Shown here piece by piece: positions 54,654 to 64,000 of a DNA stretch of 64,000 nucleotides. How positions within the stretch are numbered: position 1 is the stretch's first letter; the number at the start of each line of letters is the position of its first letter. Position numbers and translations under genes: made by a program. Location: assembly GCA_046757725.1 (NCBI GenBank), contig JBHHYU010000006.1:13841-77840 (forward strand). The letters run 5' to 3'. Source of the DNA: Candidatus Binatia bacterium (lineage in GTDB: Bacteria; Desulfobacterota; Binatia; UBA9968). Under the pieces are notes generated by a model. The model did not search any database. It had not been told where the DNA came from and saw only the letters and a list, made by a program, of their open reading frames with translations.

Positions 54654-54885
54654 ATGAACTACCCCGTAGCAAGCTGCTGGGTATCAAAAGGAACGGACTC
54701 ATGTCAACACATTGCTATCGCGCCAAGAGCCTACTCCGCCGAAGCAGGCGCTTCCGCTGCGAAGGCCGGGCGCCAAGGGCGCAAAGAAAAACATGACCCT
54801 ATTTCTCCGAACTTGGCGTGCTTTGCGTCTTTGCGGGAGCCATCGTTTTGCCATTTCCGTAAGCCACATTTTAACCGATTGCTGC
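54654..54885. repeat. 232-bp element, inverted copy 1 (partner at 59254..59485)
   Basis: The reverse complement aligns to 59254..59485 with about 11 differences. A ~165-bp core differs by a single base. Confidence 0.85.
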
Positions 54886-54902: not shown

Positions 54903-55886
54903 CTACCGGTTATTCCACCCCTCACCAAACGCTTCGGCCTCCCTAAATCCTTCTTCCCTCCATTCATCAATGAGTTCGCGGACAGGAATTTTACGATGCA
55001 TCAGCCCTTTCATGAGGCTCTTATACAGAGGCGCAGATTCCGTCTGGGCGTTAACGGGGCATACGGTTAGACAAATCTTGCAACCTTCGTAGTCCTCGAA
55101 ATAGGGGCGGCAAGCCGGGGTATCCACATGCCAGCGAACGGTACCAAAAACCTCTTGTTTCTTGGGAACAATGGCATTGCCGGGACAGAAATTAGTACAC
55201 GCATTGCAGCGCAAGCACAAATCATCAAAACCGTAATCGGCAGGCGCCGGTTCGGCAACGAGCGGTATCTCAGTTGTCACAACACCAAGACGCACACTGG
55301 GGCCAAATTTCTTGGTAATCAAGGACCCATGGCGACCCAACTCGCCTAATCCGGCCTTCCAGGCAATGGGTATAAAGAGAGCGGGCCCTTCATTCGGATA
55401 GCCCACGGCATGGTAACCAAACGAACGAATAAATTGCGCCAACCGCACGGATAGATCCGAGAGCCTGTAGTAAACCCTATGAACTTCCATTTGGGACAAC
55501 GGACCCAACCGTTTCATCTCATCGAAATCCATGTGAATGGCGAAGGAGATCCCACGGTTGTGACCTTGAGGGGGTGCAGTACCGCGGACAAAGTCGAACC
55601 GATCCACGGGGGCAATACCGACGAGATCGGCACCCAGCTGCAGGGCGGTCTCCTTTACGAATCGTGTTACTCCGTCCCAATCCTTCGTTTCCAGTTTTTC
55701 GGGATTGAGGGGGCCATCGTAAAGACCGCGTTGCGCATGCTCGGCCCTCATGAACATGAAGCGACGGGTTTGCGGGTGCCGCTTCGCCTTCGTGGCTTCA
55801 CCGCGCTTTTTATCTGGGAACGGCGACTGCTTGATGGCCGGTTCTCTACCAGGTGTGAAGATGATACCTTTAGGCTCCATGGGCAC
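54903..55886 (-). CDS. QueG/RdhA-superfamily protein with two [4Fe-4S] ferredoxin motifs (epoxyqueuosine-reductase-like)
   Basis: CLRCNACTNFCPGNAI and CKICLTVCPVN motifs. N-terminal VKETALQLGADLVGIAPVD resembles the QueG N-terminus. The start appears to be GTG. Confidence 0.6.
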   Translation of the reverse strand: MPMEPKGIIFTPGREPAIKQSPFPDKKRGEATKAKRHPQTRRFMFMRAEHAQRGLYDGPLNPEKLETKDWDGVTRFVKETALQLGADLVGIAPVDRFDFVRGTAPPQGHNRGISFAIHMDFDEMKRLGPLSQMEVHRVYYRLSDLSVRLAQFIRSFGYHAVGYPNEGPALFIPIAWKAGLGELGRHGSLITKKFGPSVRLGVVTTEIPLVAEPAPADYGFDDLCLRCNACTNFCPGNAIVPKKQEVFGTVRWHVDTPACRPYFEDYEGCKICLTVCPVNAQTESAPLYKSLMKGLMHRKIPVRELIDEWREEGFREAEAFGEGWNNR

Positions 55887-56353: not shown

Positions 56354-57883
56354 ATGTGTGGAATAGCGACATACGTCGGATGTCAGTCGAGTACGGTCAC
56401 CAACATGATGGACGGTATAGCTGGACGTCTCCAGCACCGAGGGCCCGACGATTCTGGGGTCTTCCACGTCGGTTCGACGGTGCTCGCTCATCGGCGCTTG
56501 TCGATCATCGACGTCGCCGGGGGAAAACAACCTATATACAACGAAAACGGCGATCTGGCCCTTGTTTGCAACGGTGAGATCTACAACCATGAGCGGCTGC
56601 GCCATGAGTTGCGGGACCGACACCGCTTCCGCACACACTCCGATTCCGAGGTTATTCTTCACCTATACGAAGATTTGGGCCCGGCATTCGTGACAAAGCT
56701 TGACGGCATGTTCGCCTTCGTGTTGAGCGACGGCGAGGAGGTCTTCGCAGCGCGTGATCCCCTCGGTATCAAGCCGCTGTATATGGGAAGCGATGCCGAG
56801 GGTGGACTGTGGTTTGCCTCCGAACTCAAGGCGCTGATCGATGTGTGTGTAGATATCAAGGAGGTCCCACCAGGATTTGCGTACACTCGCGGCACCCTGG
56901 AGCAATGGTATCATCCATTGTGGCGGGAGCCGCCGGATCGGTCTTTGATGCTCGACCCAAGTTCAATCCGGGATAGGCTTGAATCCGCGGTTGTCAAGCG
57001 GTTGATGAGCGAGGTTCCAGTGGGGGTGTTCCTTTCCGGCGGGCTCGACTCGAGCATCATCGCTGCGCTGGTGCGCCAGCACGTGGATGAGCTGCACAGC
57101 TTCTCGGTCGGATTGGAGGGGTCACCGGACATCCTCGCCGCCAGGAAGGTGGCCGAACATCTCCGCACGCGTCACCACGAGTACGTTTACACCTCTGGAG
57201 AGGTCATCCGTGTGCTCGAAGAGGTGATCGCCCATCTTGAGTCCTACGATCCCGCGTTATTGCGCAGCGCTGTGCCGTGTTACTTTGTCTCCAAGATCGC
57301 CTCGGATCACGTCAAGGTCGTGCTGAGCGGAGAGGGCTCCGATGAGGCCTTCGCAGGCTACCTTTACTTCGACAGCGTCGGTGATCCGGCTGCCCTCCAT
57401 CGCGAGTGCGTGCGATTACTGACCGGCCTGCACAACATGAACCTGCAGCGAGTCGACCGCATGACGATGGCTCATTCCATCGAGGGTCGCGTTCCCTTCC
57501 TCGACATTGACTTTCTCGATACCGTAATGGCAATCGATCCGGGTGAAAAACTTCACCGGCGCGGTCGCCCGGAAAAATGGCTACTGCGCAGCGCCGTGAC
57601 CGACCTTCTGCCGGAGTCCATTCTGTGGCGCACGAAACAGGAGTTCGCCCAGGGATGCGGTTCCGAATGGACCCTGCGGGAGTATTGTGCAGAGGTAGTC
57701 AGCGAAGGCGACTGGGCCCAGGCCACCCGGAGCTACCCCGTCGACGCGCCTCGGACAAAGGAAGAGTTCCACTACCGACGCATCTTCGAGGAGATCTTTC
57801 CGGGGGAGACATCGCGTCGGACGGTAGGGCGCTGGCGCGGTGCATTTACTTCACCAAGTGAACAGGAGGAATACAATGCCTAA
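56354..57883 (+). CDS. asparagine synthetase B-family glutamine amidotransferase
   Basis: N-terminal MCGI class-II GATase nucleophile and PP-loop SGGLDSS. Confidence 0.85.
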   Translation: MCGIATYVGCQSSTVTNMMDGIAGRLQHRGPDDSGVFHVGSTVLAHRRLSIIDVAGGKQPIYNENGDLALVCNGEIYNHERLRHELRDRHRFRTHSDSEVILHLYEDLGPAFVTKLDGMFAFVLSDGEEVFAARDPLGIKPLYMGSDAEGGLWFASELKALIDVCVDIKEVPPGFAYTRGTLEQWYHPLWREPPDRSLMLDPSSIRDRLESAVVKRLMSEVPVGVFLSGGLDSSIIAALVRQHVDELHSFSVGLEGSPDILAARKVAEHLRTRHHEYVYTSGEVIRVLEEVIAHLESYDPALLRSAVPCYFVSKIASDHVKVVLSGEGSDEAFAGYLYFDSVGDPAALHRECVRLLTGLHNMNLQRVDRMTMAHSIEGRVPFLDIDFLDTVMAIDPGEKLHRRGRPEKWLLRSAVTDLLPESILWRTKQEFAQGCGSEWTLREYCAEVVSEGDWAQATRSYPVDAPRTKEEFHYRRIFEEIFPGETSRRTVGRWRGAFTSPSEQEEYNA

Positions 57884-59156
57884 CGCCAATACACTATCAC
57901 CTACAAACGAAACCAACGGTCTCCGAACATACAGCGAGACCGTCGCTAAAGGACTATACAACAAATATATTGGTGGTCTGTTTGGAAAACACGACAACGT
58001 ACGGACCTACTGGGAGGACCAGCTAACCCGGCTCGCCCTGCGCCCGTTCGTTAATCGGATTGCCCAAGCCTGCCGCGCCGAAAACCGCGGCGTGCGCATC
58101 TTGGACCTGGGATGCGGTGCGGGGCAGGGATACGAATTGCTGACGCGTATCAACCAGAAAGACCTGAATATGGACACCGATTTGCCCTATGTGCTGCCCC
58201 CAGAAGAGATAGGTCAGTTTCTCGGCGTTGACATAAGCGATGCCATGGTTGAACAGGGCCGGCAGAACTACTCCGGCGTTTCGAACGTCGCCTTCGAGCA
58301 AGCGGATCTGTCCGAGGGACTCGGGATGGTCAAGTCGGAGTCACCCTTCGACATCTACTTCTCGTCGTACGGCGCCTTGTCTCATTTAGAAACCGCCGCC
58401 CTCCGTCAATGCTTGACTGATATCCTCTACCACGCGAGACCGGGAGCACTGGTGGTATTAGATATGGTTGGACGCTACTCGCCGGAGTGGCCGCTCTATT
58501 GGAGCACGGATAATGAAGTCGAGGACATGCACCCATACTCGATGAGTTACATGTACGACGAACAGGAGCGGCGGAAAGGCGAGATAGAGCAATTTCCCCT
58601 CCGCTTCTGGAGTAGTGTTGACGTACGTCGTATGTGCGACGAACTGGGTCAGCATCAAGGTGTCTCCTTGAAGCCGATCGAGTTCTTAGATCGCTCGATA
58701 TTCGTAGGGCGCCACACCGACACACGGGAATACCAGTGTAGCCTCCCGCGCCTCCGCAGGGTCGTAAACAAGCTGTACGAACTAAACGTCCGAACGCATA
58801 TCGAACAGCTCCGATTGGACTATCGGCCCTCGGATGGTCCCGAGGAACTCAACCGTTTCTTTAGTGAATTGGCCATGAGCTGGACGAAGGTCGTTGACTT
58901 TACGCTGAACCGGATTCAGGGCGACCGCATGGACCTCGTAGCCCTCGATGGCTGGCGCACGTTCGCTCCCGCTTTGCAGACGGCCCTGATGACAATGGAC
59001 CGAGTGATCGACAGCGTGTCCTGGATCAGTCTTGGCGATGTCCGCGCCAACATCCTGGAACCGCAGCTGGCCTACGTGCTGCAACGTCTCGAGTATACCA
59101 TGCAGCACGGATGGGGCTGTGGGCACGGTCTGGTCGTTGTGTTACAAGTGGAATAG
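57876..59156 (+). CDS. SAM-dependent methyltransferase with a ~250-aa C-terminal extension
   Basis: Motif I VRILDLGCGAGQG. The ATG at 57876 overlaps the asnB-like stop by 8 nt and has AGGAGG upstream. Confidence 0.7.
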   Translation: MPNANTLSPTNETNGLRTYSETVAKGLYNKYIGGLFGKHDNVRTYWEDQLTRLALRPFVNRIAQACRAENRGVRILDLGCGAGQGYELLTRINQKDLNMDTDLPYVLPPEEIGQFLGVDISDAMVEQGRQNYSGVSNVAFEQADLSEGLGMVKSESPFDIYFSSYGALSHLETAALRQCLTDILYHARPGALVVLDMVGRYSPEWPLYWSTDNEVEDMHPYSMSYMYDEQERRKGEIEQFPLRFWSSVDVRRMCDELGQHQGVSLKPIEFLDRSIFVGRHTDTREYQCSLPRLRRVVNKLYELNVRTHIEQLRLDYRPSDGPEELNRFFSELAMSWTKVVDFTLNRIQGDRMDLVALDGWRTFAPALQTALMTMDRVIDSVSWISLGDVRANILEPQLAYVLQRLEYTMQHGWGCGHGLVVVLQVE

Positions 59157-59253
59157 ATTCCGGGAAGCGTATTTATTGAAGCGTGAACCATATAAGGAGG
59201 TACCGAGGTGGCTAAGCTGTACTTTCATTCAATCGCTACGGGTTAATTCCCCG

Positions 59254-59485
59254 CAGCTATCGGTTAAGATGTGGCTTACGGAAACGGCAAAATGATGACT
59301 TGCGCAAAGGCGCAAAGCACGCCAAGTTCGGAGAAATAGGGGTCATGTTTTTCTTTGCGCCCTTGGCGCCCGGCCTTCGCAGCGGAAGCGCCTGCTTCGG
59401 CGGAGTAGGCTCTTGGCGCGATAGCAATGTGTTGACATGAGTCCGTTCCTTTTGATACCCCGCAGCTTGCTGCGGGGTAGTTCAT
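59254..59485. repeat. 232-bp element, inverted copy 2
   Basis: See copy 1. Contains a perfect hairpin CCCCGCAGC-ttg-GCTGCGGGG. Confidence 0.85.
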
Positions 59486-59562
59486 TTCGATTCGAATCTA
59501 CGGCGATGGGTTCCCTTACGAGCAAATATGTGTTATCCAGAAGCGTAAAAGGGAATCCTGTG

Positions 59563-60075
59563 ATGGGCAAACCGAGTTCAGATAGAATACTACCCAATGG
59601 GCTGGTTTTGTTCGTGGTTTTATTGTCATGGATATCATACGGCTATGCAGAGGCACCCGCTACTAAGGAAACCGCGGAACAATGGGAGGAGATAGCCTCT
59701 TTAAGGTATGAGGCTGCCATAGGCCACGAGTCACGGGCCGAACAGAAGGAAGCGCTTGGGAGTGAAACCCCTGGTGTGGCTCTTAGCGCTGCCGGTGATG
59801 AGAAGGTATCCGCTTCAGGCGGTTACAAAACCGCAAGCGAGCATTGGAAAAAAGCAGCTGAGGCGTACAAGGCGACGGGTGATTTAGATAATGCAAAAAA
59901 AGCCCGATACAACTCCGATCTGGCTTGGGAGTCGGCTAAACGTACGCTTCGCGAGGCAGCGGAATTGCATAAGAGGGCCGCAAAGGTGTTCGAAGACGCG
60001 AACAAACTGGGCGAGAAAATAGACGCGCTCAAAAAGGTGGCTAGTGATCTCGAAGCCTTACTGAACATGAAATAA
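59563..60075 (+). CDS. hypothetical secreted or membrane-anchored helical protein
   Basis: Signal-like MGKPSSDRILPNGLVLFVVLLSWISYGYAEAP followed by an Ala/Lys/Glu-rich helical region. Start chosen downstream of the repeat. Confidence 0.5.
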   Translation: MGKPSSDRILPNGLVLFVVLLSWISYGYAEAPATKETAEQWEEIASLRYEAAIGHESRAEQKEALGSETPGVALSAAGDEKVSASGGYKTASEHWKKAAEAYKATGDLDNAKKARYNSDLAWESAKRTLREAAELHKRAAKVFEDANKLGEKIDALKKVASDLEALLNMK

Positions 60076-60189
60076 TTGGAGTTAATTAGCAGTTCAAAGG
60101 TTTTAAAAGCGGCGGTCATTGGTGACAAGTCAATACCAACCGCCAGACAGCTTGACAAATCGTGCCCTTAAGATCTAATAGGGGCCAGT

Positions 60190-62151
60190 ATGGCAGCCAA
60201 ATGGGGGCTTTTCCTCTGTAATTGTCACCGCACACTTTCCCTCGATCCTGAGCGGCTTGTCCTTCCTACCGTCCCCAGCGTTCTCTCATTCGCAAGGGAT
60301 CCAGAGACTGAGGCTCCTAAATTTGCCTCAAGTGTCCAGAGTGAGGGACCCGATCAGGTACTGATCAGTTGCTGTGCCGGTCCCGGTCTGTTTAATCAGG
60401 CGATCAATAATGGCACGGCACCGTCTACGAAGCTGCGATTTGTTGATCTAAAAGGCCTCTGTTTTCAGGTCCATTCGGATCCCGCAGAGGCCCATGCCAA
60501 AGCAAACCGGTTGTTGTGTGCCGCGATGGAAACCGCCGAAGCGGAGACACAGGTGACCTATAATCCCTTGAATGTCGGGGGTCGTATCGTTATTGCGACC
60601 GATTCGACCCAAGGGATACAGTTCGCAGAAAAACTCCGAGACATCGCCCAGACAAGTTTTATTATCGCCCCGGATGTCCTGCCGGATCTGTCCCCGACGC
60701 TGGAGGTGACCAGGGGTCGGGTTCTGGGTGTCCAGGGCTCCTTGGGCGGCTTTCGGGTGACCGTTGAGACTAATGACGGGCCTAAACGGGGTCATCGGGA
60801 CCTGCAGGCGGATCAATTCGTATCCATATCAGAGAACGACACACCGGGTATTAAACGGCGTACGGGCTGTCATTTGCTTGTCAAGCCGGACAGGGCTGAC
60901 CTCGACGAACTTGCAATGCGCGTCCGTGACCTCATCGGTGACTTTGTCAAGCCGGTTCAGGTGGCATATAACGGCGATATCTGTGCGGGAGGGACGGCAG
61001 ACCAGAAGGGGTGTGGAATCTGCATAACCTCGTGTCCGTACGACGCCATCAGCCGCGACCCGCAAAATCATTTTCGGATGCAGGTTGATCACATGGCTTG
61101 CGAGGGGTGCGGCGCCTGTGCCTCGGCTTGTCCCACAAGCTCCCTGCGCTTTACGGAGCCCTCCCCGCATGAGCTCTATACGCGGCTCGCCGCTCTGCTC
61201 GGGCACAGACCAGGGCACAGTAACGGGGAACGTTTGACTGTTCTCTTCCATTGCGGCGAGCAGGGCAGGCGTGTACTCGAAGAGGCAGGCCGGCGGCCAC
61301 TGCCATACCCGGCGAGCGTGTTTCCCGTCGAGGTGCCGTGTCTGCGCTATGTTTCCGAGGCCAACATCCTGGCCGCTTTCCGCTTGGGTGCGGCCGGAGT
61401 CGGTCTCCTGGGCTGCGAGACATGCCAGCACGGGGAGCGGGAATTACTCTATCAGAAAGTTGACTTCTGCCGTCTGACTCTGGATGCCTTTGGCATGGGC
61501 TCTGAACGGTTGCGCCTCATGACTGCAGACCATGGTACGGAGGTGGAAGTCGTCACAGCCCTATCGAGCTTTGCCGAGAAGCTGGATAAGGCGCCTATCC
61601 ACTGGGACGGCAAACGCATCGATTCCTGGGGTAACCGGGAGGTAGTAGCCGACGCGATTCGGACCTTTATCGAACAGACAGGCCGGGAGCCCGGACGCAG
61701 GGCCCTCGATCCCTCGCAGCCCTTTGCTCTTGCGGATGTTGAGAGCTCTGGTTGTACCCTGTGTCGCTCCTGCGTGAATGTTTGTCCGGTACATGCCTTC
61801 AGCATCGAGGAGGGAAAAGGCTCATTGAGGTCTAAGGCCATTGCCTGTGTGGCCTGTGGTCTCTGCGAGAAGGTCTGCCCTGAAAACGTAATCACGCTTC
61901 GGCGGGAAATTTTCTTTGAACGGGACGCCCTCGATTACCAGACAGTAGTAGAAGACCCAATGGTCTCGTGTGGCAAGTGCGGGAAGCCCTATATCAACAA
62001 AAAGGCTCTGGAGACCATTGAGACTCGGCTGTTTTCACTTGAGTCGTTGATGGATACTTTTAGCGGTAATCGGCGAAAACTGCTCAGATTGTGTCCTGAC
62101 TGCCGTGCCGCAGAAGCCATGCTGGAAGTGGAGAAAGGCTGGAAACCGTGA
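60190..62151 (+). CDS. polyferredoxin with an embedded MvhD/FlpD-like domain (two 2x[4Fe-4S] modules plus a C-terminal CxxC...CxxC)
   Basis: Four CxxCxxCxxxCP motifs (CGICITSCP, CEGCGACASACP, CTLCRSCVNVCP, CVACGLCEKVCP). MvhD-like block VLFHCGEQG...VPCLRYVSEANILAAFRLGAAGVGLLGCETCQH. Confidence 0.75.
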   Translation: MAAKWGLFLCNCHRTLSLDPERLVLPTVPSVLSFARDPETEAPKFASSVQSEGPDQVLISCCAGPGLFNQAINNGTAPSTKLRFVDLKGLCFQVHSDPAEAHAKANRLLCAAMETAEAETQVTYNPLNVGGRIVIATDSTQGIQFAEKLRDIAQTSFIIAPDVLPDLSPTLEVTRGRVLGVQGSLGGFRVTVETNDGPKRGHRDLQADQFVSISENDTPGIKRRTGCHLLVKPDRADLDELAMRVRDLIGDFVKPVQVAYNGDICAGGTADQKGCGICITSCPYDAISRDPQNHFRMQVDHMACEGCGACASACPTSSLRFTEPSPHELYTRLAALLGHRPGHSNGERLTVLFHCGEQGRRVLEEAGRRPLPYPASVFPVEVPCLRYVSEANILAAFRLGAAGVGLLGCETCQHGERELLYQKVDFCRLTLDAFGMGSERLRLMTADHGTEVEVVTALSSFAEKLDKAPIHWDGKRIDSWGNREVVADAIRTFIEQTGREPGRRALDPSQPFALADVESSGCTLCRSCVNVCPVHAFSIEEGKGSLRSKAIACVACGLCEKVCPENVITLRREIFFERDALDYQTVVEDPMVSCGKCGKPYINKKALETIETRLFSLESLMDTFSGNRRKLLRLCPDCRAAEAMLEVEKGWKP

Positions 62152-62173
62152 CACAGAAGCTGATAAAGGGAGA

Positions 62174-62245
62174 GTTCAAAACGTTCAACTTGTTCAAGGC
62201 GTTCAAACGATTCAAACCATTTGAACCATATTGAACAATTGGAAC
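62174..62245 (+). repeat. hexamer array: five direct (G/A)TTCAA at exactly 9-bp spacing, then two inverted TTGAAC and a TGGAAC, ending 10 nt before ATG 62256
   Basis: Hexamers at 62174, 62183, 62192, 62201 and 62210. TTGAAC at 62221 and 62231. TGGAAC at 62240. Confidence 0.8.
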
Positions 62246-62255
62246 AAGTGGAAGT

Positions 62256-62699
62256 ATGGAGACGAGAGAGAAGCAGAAACGCAGAAAAGGCAAACGTGGG
62301 AGGCGGAAGAGTAAGGAGTTGATGGATGCGGCCCTTGATGCCTATATCCGCCATCTGGCACTGGAAAAATGGCGTCAGGTGACCGATCTCCAAGAGACTC
62401 TTGGGGTTGATGTGGGGCAGGCGGTCCGTGATGTCGGATGCTTTCCGGAAAGGGGAGCCTATGGAAACATCTGGGAGCGATGGTGGCAGACCCATGTTGT
62501 CGGCATTCATAATGCGGAGACCTCACCGCTAATCGAGCACATTGAGGCGGCGGTTCAGGGTGCGCTCGAAGAGGAGATCGTCACTCGACAGAAGCAAGAA
62601 GATGTAACGGTAGAAGATACCCTGGGCTACAAAGCCTTTCTGGATTCCGCTATGGACCACTTGTTTGAGGAAGAAGAGGGGTCCATCGAGGAGATGTGA
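62256..62699 (+). CDS. hypothetical protein (basic N-terminus, acidic C-terminus)
   Basis: Stop overlaps or abuts the start of the TorD-like gene (TGA-ATG at 62697-62702). Preceded by the GTTCAA array. Confidence 0.55.
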   Translation: METREKQKRRKGKRGRRKSKELMDAALDAYIRHLALEKWRQVTDLQETLGVDVGQAVRDVGCFPERGAYGNIWERWWQTHVVGIHNAETSPLIEHIEAAVQGALEEEIVTRQKQEDVTVEDTLGYKAFLDSAMDHLFEEEEGSIEEM

Positions 62700-63434
62700 A
62701 TGGATCAGGTAACGGTCAGAGACAAAGCGCTGGTACAGTTCCGCTACAACTATTACGGCTTGTTCGTTCGGTTCTGGTCGAGGGAACCGGCAGCGGAATT
62801 CATTGCGTCTCTAGAAGAGGGTATTCAAGATCGAATGGAGGCTGCTGCTACGCTTCACCCGCGCATGGGGGAAGGGTGGCGGCACATTCGGCAGTTTCTA
62901 GCCCAAGGCAAACCCGAGGAGGCAGCCGAAGAGTTTACCGAGCTTTTTCTCAGTCCCTTTGGTTCTCAAGTCAACCCCTATGAGTCCTATTATCTCACGG
63001 GCCACCTGTTCAGGGCTCCCCTTGTGGTCCTTCGTGGCTTCCTTGAACGTCTCGGTTTGGAGAGAGAACAGCAAGAATTTTCTGAGCCTGAAGATGTGCT
63101 GGCGTTCGAACTGGAAGTCATGCGCTGGCTGATTGGCAAGCAGATGGCGACAGAAAATGAAGGGGAAGAAACGAGTTGGTTGCAACTTCAGGCTGATTTT
63201 CTCAGAGAGCATTTGCTCGTCTGGGTTCCCACCTGTACGGAGGATATAGAGAGGGCTCAACAGGCGCACTTCTATCGTGGCGCTGCCATAATGCTCCGTG
63301 CCTTTCTTGAGTTGGAGCACACTCTCTTCCGCGACTGGGGACTGGATCAGATAGTGTCCCTTGCGGAGGCTAGAAAACGTTACGGGGTGAAACCAATCTG
63401 GAAAGGTCCAACCTTTGATGTATCCGGCGATTAG
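62700..63434 (+). CDS. TorD/DmsD/NarJ-family redox-enzyme maturation chaperone
   Basis: ELFLSPFGSQVNPYESYYLTGHLF region typical of the TorD family. Confidence 0.7.
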   Translation: MDQVTVRDKALVQFRYNYYGLFVRFWSREPAAEFIASLEEGIQDRMEAAATLHPRMGEGWRHIRQFLAQGKPEEAAEEFTELFLSPFGSQVNPYESYYLTGHLFRAPLVVLRGFLERLGLEREQQEFSEPEDVLAFELEVMRWLIGKQMATENEGEETSWLQLQADFLREHLLVWVPTCTEDIERAQQAHFYRGAAIMLRAFLELEHTLFRDWGLDQIVSLAEARKRYGVKPIWKGPTFDVSGD

Positions 63435-63582
63435 CCTGAAAATTCCTTGCCTTCCGGCGAACAGCACCTTGAACGATTTCTTTTGTCGCGCAGTTTTTTT
63501 TCCTTGACAGGTATTTGACTAAGTGATACCGGAGACAGTACATAGACGTAAGTTTCTCACTTAGGAGAGGAGGTCACCGACC

Positions 63583-63831
63583 ATGATCGAAGGCTACATA
63601 AAGAAAATGGACCTGGTGCAACGAACTGCGGTTATTACTACTGAGGACGATCAGGATATAACAATCACTTTCCCTGAGGAAGCTAACATTGAAGTCGCTG
63701 AAGAAGAAACCATGGGAACTGTTGGGGGGGAACTGGCAGACCTCCAGGAAGGATTTTACGTAGAGGTAGAGGTGGGGAGGCAGGATACTGAAGGCAAGTG
63801 GAGCTGCGGTTCCTTGGTCTGTGTGAGCTAG
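63583..63831 (+). CDS. small acidic hypothetical protein
   Basis: GGAGAGGAGG RBS immediately upstream. 82 aa. Confidence 0.5.
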   Translation: MIEGYIKKMDLVQRTAVITTEDDQDITITFPEEANIEVAEEETMGTVGGELADLQEGFYVEVEVGRQDTEGKWSCGSLVCVS

Positions 63832-63874
63832 GGGCTGTTTGACATGGCTCTTTCATGCATGGGGGGGCATACAT

Positions 63875-64000
63875 ATGAAACGAAACGTGAAGCCTAAAAA
63901 TATTCATCCGCGACGGCAATTTCTTGCCGGTGTCCTGGCAGGTGTTGGTGGCGTCGTGGCTTGGTTGTGGACCCGAAAAGCGGTGCGCGCGGCACCAAAT
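63875..64000 (+). CDS. N-terminal fragment of a Tat-exported protein (runs off the window)
   Basis: MKRNVKPKNIHPRRQFLAGVLAGVGGVVAWLW contains a twin-arginine RRxFL motif plus a hydrophobic core. Confidence 0.55.
   Translation, partial: MKRNVKPKNIHPRRQFLAGVLAGVGGVVAWLWTRKAVRAAPN

What the first reader, a model, noticed from the sequence alone, without database searches (positions are those of the whole stretch)
60190..64000. Uncharacterised redox module: polyferredoxin-MvhD fusion, GTTCAA-regulated small gene, TorD-like chaperone and a Tat-signal protein
A 653-aa protein combines two 2x[4Fe-4S] ferredoxin modules with a central MvhD/FlpD-like domain and a C-terminal CxxC…CxxC pair. This architecture is typical of electron-bifurcation-associated Hdr/Mvh-type carriers. 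It is followed by an unusual small protein (basic N-terminus, acidic C-terminus). Next come a TorD/DmsD/NarJ-family maturation chaperone, an 82-aa acidic protein with a strong RBS, and then a gene that opens with a twin-arginine signal (RRQFLAG) as the window ends. TorD-family chaperones service Tat-exported molybdo- or tungsto-pterin enzymes (established). The partial gene at 63875 is therefore probably the first subunit of such an enzyme, and the MvhD-polyferredoxin would be its cytoplasmic electron partner. The specific enzyme cannot be identified from the ~40 residues available.
Basis: partly seen in the sequence, partly recalled or inferred. Interest (0 to 1): 0.55.

Follow-up and report, generated by a model that had tools for sequence, protein, structure and literature searches.

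The report
Accessory genes of a periplasmic formate dehydrogenase
The region is the front, helper-gene half of an operon for an exported, membrane-bound formate dehydrogenase in a Binatia bacterium. It includes an uncharacterised many-cluster iron-sulfur protein that is always encoded beside the enzyme's assembly chaperone, so it more likely helps build the enzyme than carries its electrons.

Summary
Two identical Logan contigs extend the window by 1.5 kb and answer the open question.

- **Tat ORF at 63875:** it is a complete 69-aa peptide and a weak relative of TIGR02811 ('formate dehydrogenase region TAT target').
- **Next gene:** it starts 166 nt past the window and is a Tat-signal formate dehydrogenase alpha subunit with a Cys active site (HQARICH). 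Nine relatives have TGA (selenocysteine) at that codon.
- **Conservation:** in about 50 related loci from at least six phyla the order is polyFd-[FdhD]-p147-TorD-like-p82-tat69-FdhA-FdhB(FDH3-beta)-NrfD-cytochrome c. The TorD-like gene follows polyFd in 43 of 43 informative loci.
- **The 653-aa protein:** it combines an HdrA N-terminal domain, HdrA's C-terminal ferredoxin domain, MvhD and a HycF-like ferredoxin with a Cys4 tail. HdrA's flavin domain is reduced to a remnant without GxGxxG, so it cannot bifurcate electrons by itself.
- **SAR324 arrangement:** polyFd stays with p147, the TorD-like gene, MoeA, a TupA-like transporter and MobB, not with the structural genes.

I favour a NapF/FdhE-like cytoplasmic maturation role (about 0.5) over a respiratory electron partner (about 0.2).

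The GTTCAA array is real and restricted to Binatia. It behaves more like an imperfect hairpin than a fixed operator.

The system is of a known kind, with uncharacterised accessory proteins.

The parts
60190..62151 (+). polyFd: a 653-aa cytoplasmic multi-cluster Fe-S protein. Its modules are an HdrA-type N-terminal domain (about 1-130; C10, C12, C61, C62), a degenerate Rossmann remnant (about 130-262), an HdrA C-terminal-type 2x[4Fe-4S] ferredoxin (265-314), an MvhD/FlpD domain (351-467; C355, C384, C409, C412), and a HycF/HyfH-like 2x[4Fe-4S] module with a Cys4 tail (519-648).
   Evidence: Pfam and NCBIfam. PDB profile search: HdrA 9sfi_A residues 7-177 and 586-646, MvhD 9sfi_K E=2e-12, HycF 7z0s_F residues 36-163 E=4.7e-11. 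Invariant Cys in the 16-sequence alignment A1. The NCBI name is only '4Fe-4S dicluster domain-containing protein [Candidatus Binatia bacterium]'.
62174..62255 (.). Hexamer array between polyFd and p147: four GTTCAA at a 9-bp period (62174, 62183, 62192, 62201), one ATTCAA, then inverted TTGAAC (62221, 62231) and TGGAAC/TGGAAG. The array ends 1 nt before the p147 ATG. It forms an imperfect hairpin.
   Evidence: hairpin -19.9 kcal/mol, z -0.78. Equivalent arrays occur in L004, L005 and L010, and arrays built from other words occur in L003, L006, L008 and L030.
62256..62699 (+). p147: a conserved unannotated helical protein with a basic N-terminal tail, a FMDAALDAYxRHLALEKWR motif and an acidic C-terminus. 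Its stop codon abuts the ATG of the next gene (TGAATG).
   Evidence: 62 homologues, all named 'hypothetical' with no Pfam domain. Alignment A3. AF2 pLDDT 85, five helices. No PDB fold match, Foldseek E>1. Present in 40 of 45 informative loci.
62700..63434 (+). TorD/NarJ/DmsD-family redox-enzyme maturation chaperone, FdhM-like by its context.
   Evidence: PF02613 E=2e-31. TorD NF003442 scores 67 bits, below the 132 cut-off. It follows polyFd in 43 of 43 informative loci. FdhM precedent: PMC4148689.
63583..63831 (+). p82: a conserved acidic OB-fold protein (pI 4.05) with a C-terminal C75...C80 pair and a strong Shine-Dalgarno sequence at 63564-63573.
63875..64000 (+). tat69: the first 42 of 69 codons of a small twin-arginine-signal peptide. 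The full gene ends at window-equivalent 64084. The C-terminus reads ILYRRTEEAERYYKTLYK.
   Evidence: TIGR02811 'formate dehydrogenase region TAT target' scores 18.7 bits, E=0.0017, covering profile positions 10-66 of 66. Orthologues score 25-31 bits. The cut-off is 48.45.

Best explanation
Window 60190-64000 is the accessory (5') half of an operon for a Tat-exported, membrane-anchored formate dehydrogenase of the 'FDH3'/FdhA-FdhB-NrfD kind. The catalytic gene fdhA (Cys variant) begins 166 nt beyond the window end.

**Proposed mechanism.**
- The TorD-like protein acts as FdhM does in Campylobacter. It binds the RR-signal of pre-FdhA and holds it in the cytoplasm while the sulfurated W/Mo-bisPGD cofactor (delivered by FdhD) and the Fe-S clusters are inserted. 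FdhAB is then exported.
- The 653-aa polyferredoxin and p147 form a conserved cytoplasmic module with that chaperone.
- I propose that polyFd works at this pre-export stage, as NapF does for NapA or FdhE for E. coli FDH-N/O. It would be a redox-active or Fe-S-donating maturation or proofreading factor, for example supplying electrons for cofactor sulfuration or reduction, or clusters to apo-FdhA/B.
- After export, formate electrons go from FdhA through FdhB to the NrfD subunit and quinone and/or to the cytochrome c. None of these steps needs a cytoplasmic partner.

**Shown:** gene identities, domain make-up, loss of the flavin motif, synteny.

**Inferred:** chaperone-client pairing, the maturation role of polyFd and p147, and any role for p82 and tat69.

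**Confidence split:** operon identity about 0.9; maturation role of polyFd about 0.5.
For: **Downstream gene.** L001 and L002 are identical to the window. They show tat69 as a complete gene, followed by a Tat-signal FDH alpha subunit. The active-site codon is TGC here and TGA in 9 relatives.

**Structural genes in relatives.** FdhB scores 303 bits on NF038355 FDH3_beta (cut-off 240). The next genes are a NrfD-family membrane subunit (PF03916), a cytochrome c and an FG-GAP protein.

**Synteny across Binatia, Tectomicrobia, SAR324, NC10, Nitrospinota and Lambdaproteobacteria.** TorD-like 43/43, p147 40/45, p82 34/39, FdhA 32/36 informative loci.

**Every conserved immediate neighbour of polyFd that has a known function is a maturation gene.**
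- FdhD lies directly after polyFd in Tectomicrobia, with start and stop codons overlapping or within about 30 nt (TIGR00129 204 bits, cut-off 141).
- In SAR324 the structural genes sit upstream, while polyFd-p147-TorD is followed by MoeA, a TupA-like ABC transporter and MobB.

**No flavin site.** HdrA's GAGIAG aligns to TDSTQG, and the 130-262 segment is far too short for HdrA's FAD domain.

**Literature precedents.** FdhM is a TorD homologue specific for FDH (PMC4148689). NapF is a cytoplasmic 4x[4Fe-4S] protein that binds NapA and is needed for its Fe-S assembly, and FdhE is an iron-binding CX2C protein tied to periplasmic FDHs (PMC10609526). No FdhE-like sequence was detected in polyFd.
Against: - There is no direct evidence of any interaction or maturation phenotype. 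The argument rests on gene neighbourhood.
- All homologous modules (HdrA, MvhD, HycF, MvhB/FwdF) come from true electron-transfer complexes, and a chain of about six clusters looks oversized for a chaperone.
- The NapF match is below its cut-off (49.9 against 102 bits).
- FdhD was not found in the 64-kb window itself.
- Two loci (L034, and L017 where an IS element interrupts the cluster) keep polyFd and TorD without a nearby FdhA.
- The remainder of the operon in this genome (FdhB, NrfD) is inferred from relatives with 56-62% identity, not seen directly.
Confidence: 0.55

Rival explanations
1. One reading: polyFd is the cytoplasmic electron-transfer partner of the exported enzyme, an Hdr/Mvh-type carrier. 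It would accept or deliver low-potential electrons linked to formate oxidation across the membrane, possibly as part of a bifurcating or confurcating system.
For: - Homology to HdrA N- and C-terminal domains, MvhD, the MvhB/FwdF polyferredoxins and HycF of formate hydrogenlyase.
- 28 of the 32 cysteines are invariant and fit about six metal sites.
- The periplasmic FeS subunit, NrfD subunit and cytochrome c resemble the DsrJOP/Hmc-type modules that pair with cytoplasmic Hdr-like proteins. FdhB's second-best hit is DsrO at 108 bits. The analogy itself is from my own knowledge.
Against: - There is no flavin domain or motif, so bifurcation has no site in this protein.
- NrfD-family subunits carry no redox cofactor (established knowledge), and no heme-b or HdrE/DsrM-like membrane gene was found among the neighbours annotated. 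A 223-aa no-family ORF in L010 was not examined.
- In SAR324 polyFd segregates with the chaperone, MoeA, TupA-like and MobB genes rather than with fdhAB-nrfD.
- FdhD is inserted between polyFd and p147 in Tectomicrobia.
Confidence: 0.2
2. polyFd is a redox or oxygen sensor, or a gatekeeper. It would couple the cellular redox state to export or expression of an O2-sensitive W/Mo enzyme in these largely aerobic lineages, without taking part in cofactor chemistry or respiration.
For: - It occurs in Binatia, SAR324, NC10, Nitrospinota and Entotheonella, which I know as largely aerobic or microaerobic lineages (own knowledge, not tested here).
- It is strictly coupled to the proofreading chaperone.
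- Labile Fe-S clusters are classical O2 sensors (established knowledge).
Against: - There is no DNA-binding or signalling domain.
- Six clusters are far more than sensors normally use.
- The evidence does not distinguish this model from the maturation model.
Confidence: 0.1
3. For the GTTCAA array, there are two competing readings. Either it is a protein operator (periodic hexamers bound by an oligomeric regulator), or it is a structural hairpin (attenuator, processing or stabilising element, or cruciform) that decouples polyFd from p147-TorD expression.
For: **Operator reading.** The same hexamer, at a 9-10-bp period, is kept in four Binatia genomes whose polyFd proteins share only 56-62% identity with the window protein. 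The spacers between hexamers vary.

**Hairpin reading.**
- Other relatives have different words in the same slot (TCTCAAAT/ATTTGAGA; GGCAGTA/TTGCCT), but always as a direct arm plus an inverted arm.
- L004 and L030 fold with z about -5.3. L004's hairpin is followed by T7.
- In L010 the arms pair in the minimum-free-energy fold across a 200-nt insert, though not in the centroid structure.
Against: - The window's own hairpin is weak (z -0.78), and L008 and L007 do not fold above background.
- No regulator gene is linked to the array.
- The arrays are absent from SAR324, NC10 and Tectomicrobia clusters, where the genes abut.
- No Rfam family and no consensus promoter or terminator was found here.
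Confidence: 0.15

Closest known systems
Campylobacter jejuni fdh locus (fdhM = cj1514c, a TorD homologue upstream of the fdh operon; fdhD in the same operon)
   Same: A TorD-family chaperone is encoded directly upstream of a Tat-exported FdhA and is dedicated to FDH (PMC4148689; PMC10609526). From my own memory, not checked here, a small Tat-signal ORF also sits between the chaperone and fdhA there.
   Different: As far as I know, C. jejuni has no polyferredoxin, p147 or p82 in its locus. From memory, its membrane subunit is a cytochrome b rather than NrfD. No sequence comparison with Cj1514c was made.
FDH3 of Methylobacterium extorquens (fdh3DABC), periplasmic formate dehydrogenase
   Same: FdhB orthologues in the related loci pass the NCBIfam equivalog model 'FDH3 subunit beta' (303 bits, cut-off 240). 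The enzyme is Tat-exported and periplasmic, and an fdhD is associated with it (PMC12180729).
   Different: The alpha subunit reaches no equivalog cut-off. The polyFd/p147/TorD/p82/tat69 accessory set is not part of the fdh3DABC description. I did not examine the gamma-subunit type of FDH3.
NapF (cytoplasmic poly-[4Fe-4S] protein of periplasmic nitrate reductase systems)
   Same: It is a cytoplasmic, signal-less protein with multiple [4Fe-4S] motifs, encoded with a Tat-exported bis-PGD enzyme. It binds the pre-export catalytic subunit and is needed for its Fe-S assembly (PMC10609526). One family member is even annotated 'NapF' (P0073).
   Different: polyFd is four times larger and carries HdrA-N, MvhD and HycF-like modules. 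The TIGR00402 score is 49.9 against a cut-off of 102. Its client would be FDH, not Nap.
HdrA2 / HdrA-MvhD of methanogens (flavin-based electron-bifurcating heterodisulfide reductase)
   Same: The order of homologous modules matches: N-terminal cluster domain, then C-terminal ferredoxin domain, then fused MvhD. The best NCBIfam hit is HdrA2 positions 580-770 of 777. The best PDB hits are 9sfi_A, 5odc_A and 8rvv_A.
   Different: The FAD-binding thioredoxin-reductase-like domain and the inserted ferredoxin are missing, with no GxGxxG. The score is 102 bits against a cut-off of 1100. No HdrB/C or Mvh hydrogenase genes are nearby. The host lineages are bacterial, not methanogens.
FdhE (accessory protein of E. 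coli periplasmic FDH-N/O)
   Same: It is a cytoplasmic, Cys-rich metal-binding accessory protein tied specifically to Tat-exported FDHs (PMC10609526). polyFd ends in CxxC...CxxC.
   Different: No detectable sequence relationship. The Cys4 tail of polyFd instead aligns as part of a HycF/HyfH-like module.
TIGR02811 'formate dehydrogenase region TAT target'
   Same: A peptide of about 70 aa or less with an RR signal, encoded next to FDH genes. The match covers nearly the whole profile.
   Different: Scores are 18.7-31 bits against a trusted cut-off of 48.45. It is a divergent relative at best. The function of that family is itself unknown.

Membership tests
NarJ/TorD/DmsD chaperone family (PF02613) | Pfam model match above the gathering score | tested here: met
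   109.3 bits against 22.2, E=2e-31, residues 53-180.
NarJ/TorD/DmsD chaperone family (PF02613) | Assignment to a named subfamily (TorD NF003442, DmsD NF008632, type II DMSO-reductase chaperone TIGR03482) | tested here: not met
   67.2/132, 36.5/162 and 49.0/152 bits respectively. It is a family member without a subfamily.
NarJ/TorD/DmsD chaperone family (PF02613) | Binds the twin-arginine signal of its client enzyme | not testable with these tools
   Only context is available: a Tat-signal FdhA lies 730 nt downstream.
FdhM-type FDH-specific chaperone | TorD homologue encoded upstream of, and co-conserved with, a Tat-exported fdhA | tested here: met
   The TorD-like gene is present in 43 of 43 informative loci, and FdhA is in the cluster in 32 of 36. 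Precedent: PMC4148689.
FdhM-type FDH-specific chaperone | Sequence orthology to Cj1514c; loss abolishes only FDH activity | not tested
The phenotype needs an experiment.
TIGR02811 formate dehydrogenase region TAT target | Small protein (about 70 aa or less) with an N-terminal RR signal, encoded beside FDH genes | tested here: met
   69 aa, PRRQFLAG followed by a hydrophobic stretch, 81 nt upstream of fdhA.
TIGR02811 formate dehydrogenase region TAT target | HMM score at or above the trusted cut-off (48.45 bits) | tested here: not met
   18.7 bits for the window protein; 25.3, 29.4 and 30.9 bits for orthologues.
HdrA (bifurcating heterodisulfide reductase subunit A) | N-terminal cluster domain and C-terminal 2x[4Fe-4S] ferredoxin domain | tested here: met
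   Residues 6-164 align to 9sfi_A 7-177, and 275-334 to 9sfi_A 586-646.
HdrA (bifurcating heterodisulfide reductase subunit A) | FAD-binding thioredoxin-reductase-like domain with a GxGxxG motif | tested here: not met
   GAGIAG aligns to TDSTQG. None of the 16 aligned sequences has the motif. Only about 130 residues lie between the N-terminal domain and the ferredoxin. NCBIfam scores are 78-102 bits against cut-offs of 1100-1400.
MvhD/FlpD (PF02662) | Pfam match above the gathering score, with conserved Cys ligands | tested here: met
   58.9 bits against 22.3, covering profile positions 2-121 of 123. C355, C384, C409 and C412 are invariant. MvhD chains 9sfi_K and 9sw2_D match at E=2e-12 and 9e-9.
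NapF (TIGR00402) | Model score at or above the cut-off | tested here: not met
   49.9 bits against 102.2.
NapF (TIGR00402) | Cytoplasmic poly-[4Fe-4S] protein encoded with a Tat-exported bis-PGD enzyme (functional analogy) | tested here: met
   Four CxxCxxCxxxC motifs, no signal peptide evident on reading the N-terminus (no predictor was run), and synteny with FdhA.
FdhE (PF04216) | Sequence or profile similarity to FdhE | tested here: not met
   No Pfam hit even at E up to 10 for the C-terminal 79 residues. No 2fiy-type hit in the PDB profile search.
Formate dehydrogenase alpha subunit (downstream gene, outside the window) | Fe4S4 and molybdopterin domains, Sec/Cys-His active-site motif, best match to FDH models | tested here: met
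   PF04879 and PF00384. TIGR01591 is the top hit at 403 bits on a 454-aa fragment. HQARI[C/U]HSTTV, with TGC here and TGA in 9 relatives.
Formate dehydrogenase alpha subunit (downstream gene, outside the window) | Equivalog cut-off of a specific FDH model reached | tested here: not met
   The full-length orthologue in L019 scores 474 bits against 666 (TIGR01591) and 341 against 814 (TIGR01553). The window lineage is only seen as a fragment.

The most novel reading that the evidence does not exclude
polyFd could be the cytoplasmic end of a previously unseen transmembrane or low-potential electron route. Electrons from periplasmic formate oxidation (E0' about -420 mV) would reach a flavin-less HdrA/MvhD/HycF-type wire in the cytoplasm of aerobic or microaerobic bacteria, yielding ferredoxin-level reductant without a heme-b subunit.

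A less radical but still new reading is more probable (about 0.35). In this reading polyFd, p147 and the TorD-like protein form a redox-driven maturation machine. It would supply the electrons for FdhD-dependent sulfuration or reduction of the W/Mo cofactor, and it would replace FdhE in these phyla.
Probability: 0.07. Interest if true: 0.85.

Novelty: new variant of a known kind. Interest (0 to 1): 0.42.

Why it matters
How Tat-exported formate dehydrogenases are assembled is only partly understood. The roles of FdhE and FdhM, and the source of electrons for cofactor sulfuration, are still open questions (PMC10609526).

This work identifies a conserved gene set spanning several phyla: an HdrA/MvhD/HycF-derived polyferredoxin, two unannotated small proteins, a TorD-like chaperone and a small Tat peptide. 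The set accompanies FDH3/NrfD-type enzymes in uncultured, environmentally abundant lineages (Binatia, SAR324, NC10, Nitrospinota, Entotheonella).

If the polyferredoxin is a redox-active maturation factor, it would be a concrete candidate for the missing reductant or cluster donor. It would also be a useful co-expression partner for producing W/Mo formate dehydrogenases heterologously for CO2 reduction.

If it proves to be an ordinary accessory ferredoxin, the practical outcome is better annotation of roughly 270 protein clusters that are now labelled only '4Fe-4S dicluster domain-containing protein'.

Tried and rejected
- **The source contig.** The 85.6-kb NCBI contig was not retrievable. The look-up of encoding contigs returned only two short Logan contigs, so FdhB and NrfD of this genome were not seen directly.
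- **FdhE homology of the C-terminal CxxC...CxxC domain.** There was no PDB or Pfam support when it was searched alone. It is better explained as the tail of a HycF/HyfH-like module.
- **RNA and transcription signals.** Rfam at gathering thresholds on the window and L001 gave no hits, so no Moco riboswitch or other known RNA is present. The sigma-70 promoter and intrinsic-terminator scan of 59300-64000 gave nothing above shuffle expectation.
- **Folds of the small proteins.**
  - p147 has no structural relative in the PDB (Foldseek E>1).
  - The AFDB50 library was unavailable.
  - p82 gives only a generic OB fold. I considered a TOBE/Mop-like molybdate-binding reading but did not establish it.
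- **The upstream 212-aa ORF (59437-60075).** It has no counterpart in any related locus, so I excluded it from the module.
- **Other genes in the window.** FdhD, MoeA, MobB, SelB, FdhB and NrfD were searched by tblastn in the 64-kb window and none was found.
- **Literature.** Searches for this polyferredoxin in an FDH context and for TIGR02811 returned nothing relevant. PMC3119410 (Pereira et al. 2011) is not held in the library.
- **'Simple operator' reading of GTTCAA.** I did not adopt it, because the repeated word changes between close relatives. The pure hairpin reading is not adopted either, because the window's own fold is not better than shuffles.
- **More distant same-architecture relatives** (25-34% identity). 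None falls into a curated NCBIfam family.

Full report
**1. Observation**

- The 653-aa protein (60190-62151) carries two dicluster ferredoxin modules and a central FlpD/MvhD domain (PF02662, E=6.7e-16). It has 32 cysteines, including C594xxC597...C635xxC638.
- The 147-aa protein has a very basic N-terminus (pI 11.7 over 22 residues) and an acidic C-terminus.
- The 244-aa protein is a clear NarJ/TorD/DmsD-family member (PF02613, E=2e-31). It reaches no subfamily cut-off.
- The 82-aa protein is acidic (pI 4.05) and is preceded by GGAGAGGAGG.
- The last ORF opens with PRRQFLAG.
- The GTTCAA cluster is real. Six exact hexamers lie in 63 bp, against 37 in the whole 64-kb window, and 37 is exactly the chance level.

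**2. What lies beyond the window**

Two Logan contigs carry the same proteins. They are 100% identical to the window over 4528 and 2602 nt and extend about 1.5 kb further.

They show that the Tat ORF is a complete 69-aa gene. It is followed 81 nt later by a gene of more than 454 aa with these features:
- its own Tat signal (NRRNFLRAAG);
- a CxxCxxxC Fe4S4 domain and a molybdopterin domain;
- a best match to formate dehydrogenase alpha models (TIGR01591, 403 bits on the fragment).

Its active site reads HQARICHSTTV with TGC. Nine related loci have TGA at that codon, and an NC10 locus carries SelB nearby. This is the classic Sec/Cys alternation of formate dehydrogenases.

The small peptide matches TIGR02811, 'formate dehydrogenase region TAT target', over almost the whole profile. 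The score is below the trusted cut-off: 18.7 bits here and 25-31 bits in orthologues, against 48.45.

**3. Anatomy of the 653-aa protein**

NCBI names it only '4Fe-4S dicluster domain-containing protein [Candidatus Binatia bacterium]'. A profile of 16 family members searched against PDB sequences resolves five modules:

| Residues | Match |
|---|---|
| 6-164 | N-terminal domain of HdrA and the start of its flavin domain (9sfi_A 7-177; also 5odc_A, 8rvv_A) |
| 275-334 | HdrA's C-terminal ferredoxin domain |
| 348-472 | MvhD |
| 504-576 | MvhB/FwdF polyferredoxins |
| 519-644 | Almost all of HycF of formate hydrogenlyase (7z0s_F residues 36-163; NF009053 positions 37-168 of 180); this includes the CxxC...CxxC tail |

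The decisive negative concerns the flavin site. HdrA's Rossmann GAGIAG aligns to TDSTQG, and none of the 16 sequences has GxGxxG. Only about 130 residues separate the N-terminal domain from the first ferredoxin. The protein is therefore a flavin-less HdrA-MvhD-HycF chimera. It is an electron wire or cluster carrier, not a bifurcating unit.

Twenty-eight cysteines are invariant, in sets that fit about six metal sites.

No curated NCBIfam model reaches its cut-off for this protein or for more distant relatives with the same architecture. An exhaustive search finds 269 clusters (at 50% identity) with E<=1e-30, about 25 of them at 40% identity or more.

**4. Gene neighbourhood**

A scan of GTDB species representatives returned about 52 loci with full-length or clearly orthologous partial relatives. 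They come from Binatia, Tectomicrobia/Entotheonella, SAR324, NC10/Methylomirabilales, Nitrospinota, Lambdaproteobacteria and Eisenbacteria.

tblastn with the window proteins and with neighbours from the loci gives a consistent order:

polyFd-[FdhD]-p147-TorD-like-p82-tat69-FdhA-FdhB-NrfD-cytochrome c/FG-GAP

Counting only loci long enough to be informative:

| Gene | Present / informative |
|---|---|
| TorD-like | 43/43 |
| p147 | 40/45 |
| p82 | 34/39 |
| FdhA | 32/36 |

Of the four loci without FdhA, two are SAR324 contigs that lack the upstream side, and one (L017) is interrupted by IS-type transposase ORFs.

The neighbours are identified as follows:
- FdhB passes the equivalog model 'FDH3 subunit beta' (303 bits, cut-off 240).
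- The membrane subunit is NrfD family.
- A cytochrome c and an FG-GAP propeller follow.
- FdhD passes TIGR00129 (204 bits, cut-off 141). In Tectomicrobia it sits directly after polyFd, with stop and start overlapping or within about 30 nt.

In SAR324 the cluster is permuted. The block p82-tat69-FdhA-FdhB-NrfD-cytochrome c comes first. Then polyFd-p147-TorD-like is followed by MoeA, a TupA-like binding protein with its ABC partners, and MobB. So p82 and tat69 travel with the structural genes, while polyFd and p147 travel with the chaperone and the cofactor genes.

**5. The two unknown small proteins**

Both families are annotated only as 'hypothetical' and have no Pfam domain.
- p147 is predicted with confidence (pLDDT 85) as five helices and has no fold relative in the PDB.

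Their functions remain open.

**6. The hexamer array**

Across 1.18 Mb of window and loci, arrays of three or more GTTCAA/TTGAAC occur only in Binatia-type loci. With one exception (L030 at 18.7 kb), they lie in this accessory block.
- A (GTTCAA)n arm and a (TTGAAC)n arm are present. The second arm ends 1-14 nt before the start codon of p147 (window, L004, L010) or of the TorD-like gene (L005).
- L003, L006, L008 and L030 have different repeated words in the same slot, again as a direct arm plus an inverted arm.
- Predicted RNA hairpins vary in strength:
  - strong in L004 and L030 (z about -5.3);
  - moderate in L003 and L006;
  - not better than shuffles in the window (z -0.78), L007 and L008.
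- In L010 the arms pair in the minimum-free-energy fold across a structured 200-nt insert, but not in the centroid.

I read this as a lineage-specific, repeat-built hairpin element whose function is unresolved. It could be an attenuator, a processing site or an operator. 'GTTCAA-regulated' is a hypothesis, not a finding.

**7. Mechanism**

The shown facts fit a Tat-exported FdhAB on a NrfD anchor, with a dedicated cytoplasmic assembly set.

The TorD-like protein is most simply an FdhM-type chaperone. FdhM is a TorD homologue upstream of fdhA in C. jejuni and is required only for FDH (PMC4148689).

For polyFd I favour a pre-export role analogous to two known proteins (PMC10609526):
- NapF, a cytoplasmic poly-[4Fe-4S] protein that binds NapA and is needed for its Fe-S assembly;
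- FdhE, an iron-binding CX2C protein tied to periplasmic FDHs.

The reasons are as follows:
- Its constant partner is the chaperone.
- Its variable immediate partners are FdhD, MoeA, MobB and a tungstate-type transporter.
- The mature enzyme is periplasmic and needs no cytoplasmic partner.
- NrfD subunits have no cofactors for transmembrane electron transfer, and no heme-b subunit was found among the annotated neighbours.
- The protein has no flavin.

A specific but speculative version is that polyFd supplies the electrons needed to turn an FdhD persulfide into the sulfido ligand, or to reduce W/Mo before insertion.

The rival model, a true electron-transfer partner, is kept alive by the pedigree of every module (Hdr, Mvh, FHL) and by the length of the cluster chain. 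I give it about 0.2.

**8. Comparison and novelty**

The enzyme type is known. A periplasmic FDH linked to quinone through NrfD has been proposed for SAR324 (PMC4782131). FDH3 is the periplasmic FDH of M. extorquens (PMC12180729). A TorD-type chaperone at an fdh operon is also known.

What I could not find in the searchable literature is the conserved polyFd-p147 pair, together with p82, as part of such operons.

I therefore class the finding as a new variant of a known kind. It is a well-defined candidate maturation module, not a new system. The unknown enzyme is now identified, and the most exciting reading (bifurcation) loses its flavin.

Noticed in passing
window 54654-54885 and 59253-59485: A 232-nt inverted repeat (95% identical, only these two copies in the window) brackets a 4.4-kb block. 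The block holds a reductive-dehalogenase/QueG-like Fe-S protein (54903-55886, minus strand), asparagine synthase B (56354-57883) and a 438-aa methyltransferase-like protein (57840-59156). The right arm ends about 700 bp before polyFd. It could be a composite insertion or an inverted duplication.
   Followed up: partly
L001 5282 (window-equivalent about 64754); L006, L007, L010, L030, L031, L038, L041, L045, L051: The FdhA active-site codon is TGC (Cys) in the window lineage and in most relatives. It is TGA (selenocysteine) in nine loci. SelB is encoded next to the NC10 cluster in L031.
   Followed up: yes
L022, L023, L027, L040, L048, L054 (SAR324): The cluster is permuted. The FDH structural genes come first. 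polyFd-p147-TorD-like is then followed by MoeA, a TupA-like (tungstate-type) binding protein with an ABC permease and ATPase, and MobB. This hints that the enzyme uses tungsten in these lineages (TupA model 223 bits, below the 400 cut-off).
   Followed up: partly
L010 18718-20237; L023 7525-9177: A mono-heme cytochrome c and an FG-GAP beta-propeller protein are conserved after the NrfD subunit. In SAR324 they are fused into one 550-aa protein. This is an unusual companion for a formate dehydrogenase.
   Followed up: no
L010 12013-12208: A strongly structured insert of about 200 nt sits between the GTTCAA arm and the TTGAAC arm (whole region z -5.7). It may be a small mobile or REP-like element that landed in the hairpin loop.
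   Followed up: no
L017 14225-14966: The Entotheonella cluster is interrupted right after p82 by IS-type transposase-like ORFs, and FdhA is absent from the following 7 kb.
   Followed up: no
L032, L033, L036, L037, L042 (NC10/Nitrospinota); L031, L038: In NC10-type loci p147 lies upstream of polyFd rather than between polyFd and the TorD-like gene. In L031 and L038 it was not detected at all, and the polyFd stop overlaps the TorD-like start.
   Followed up: partly
window 59437-60075: A 212-aa ORF directly upstream of polyFd has a hydrophobic N-terminal segment and a helical, charged remainder. It has no family match and no counterpart in any related locus, so it is probably not part of the module.
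   Followed up: partly
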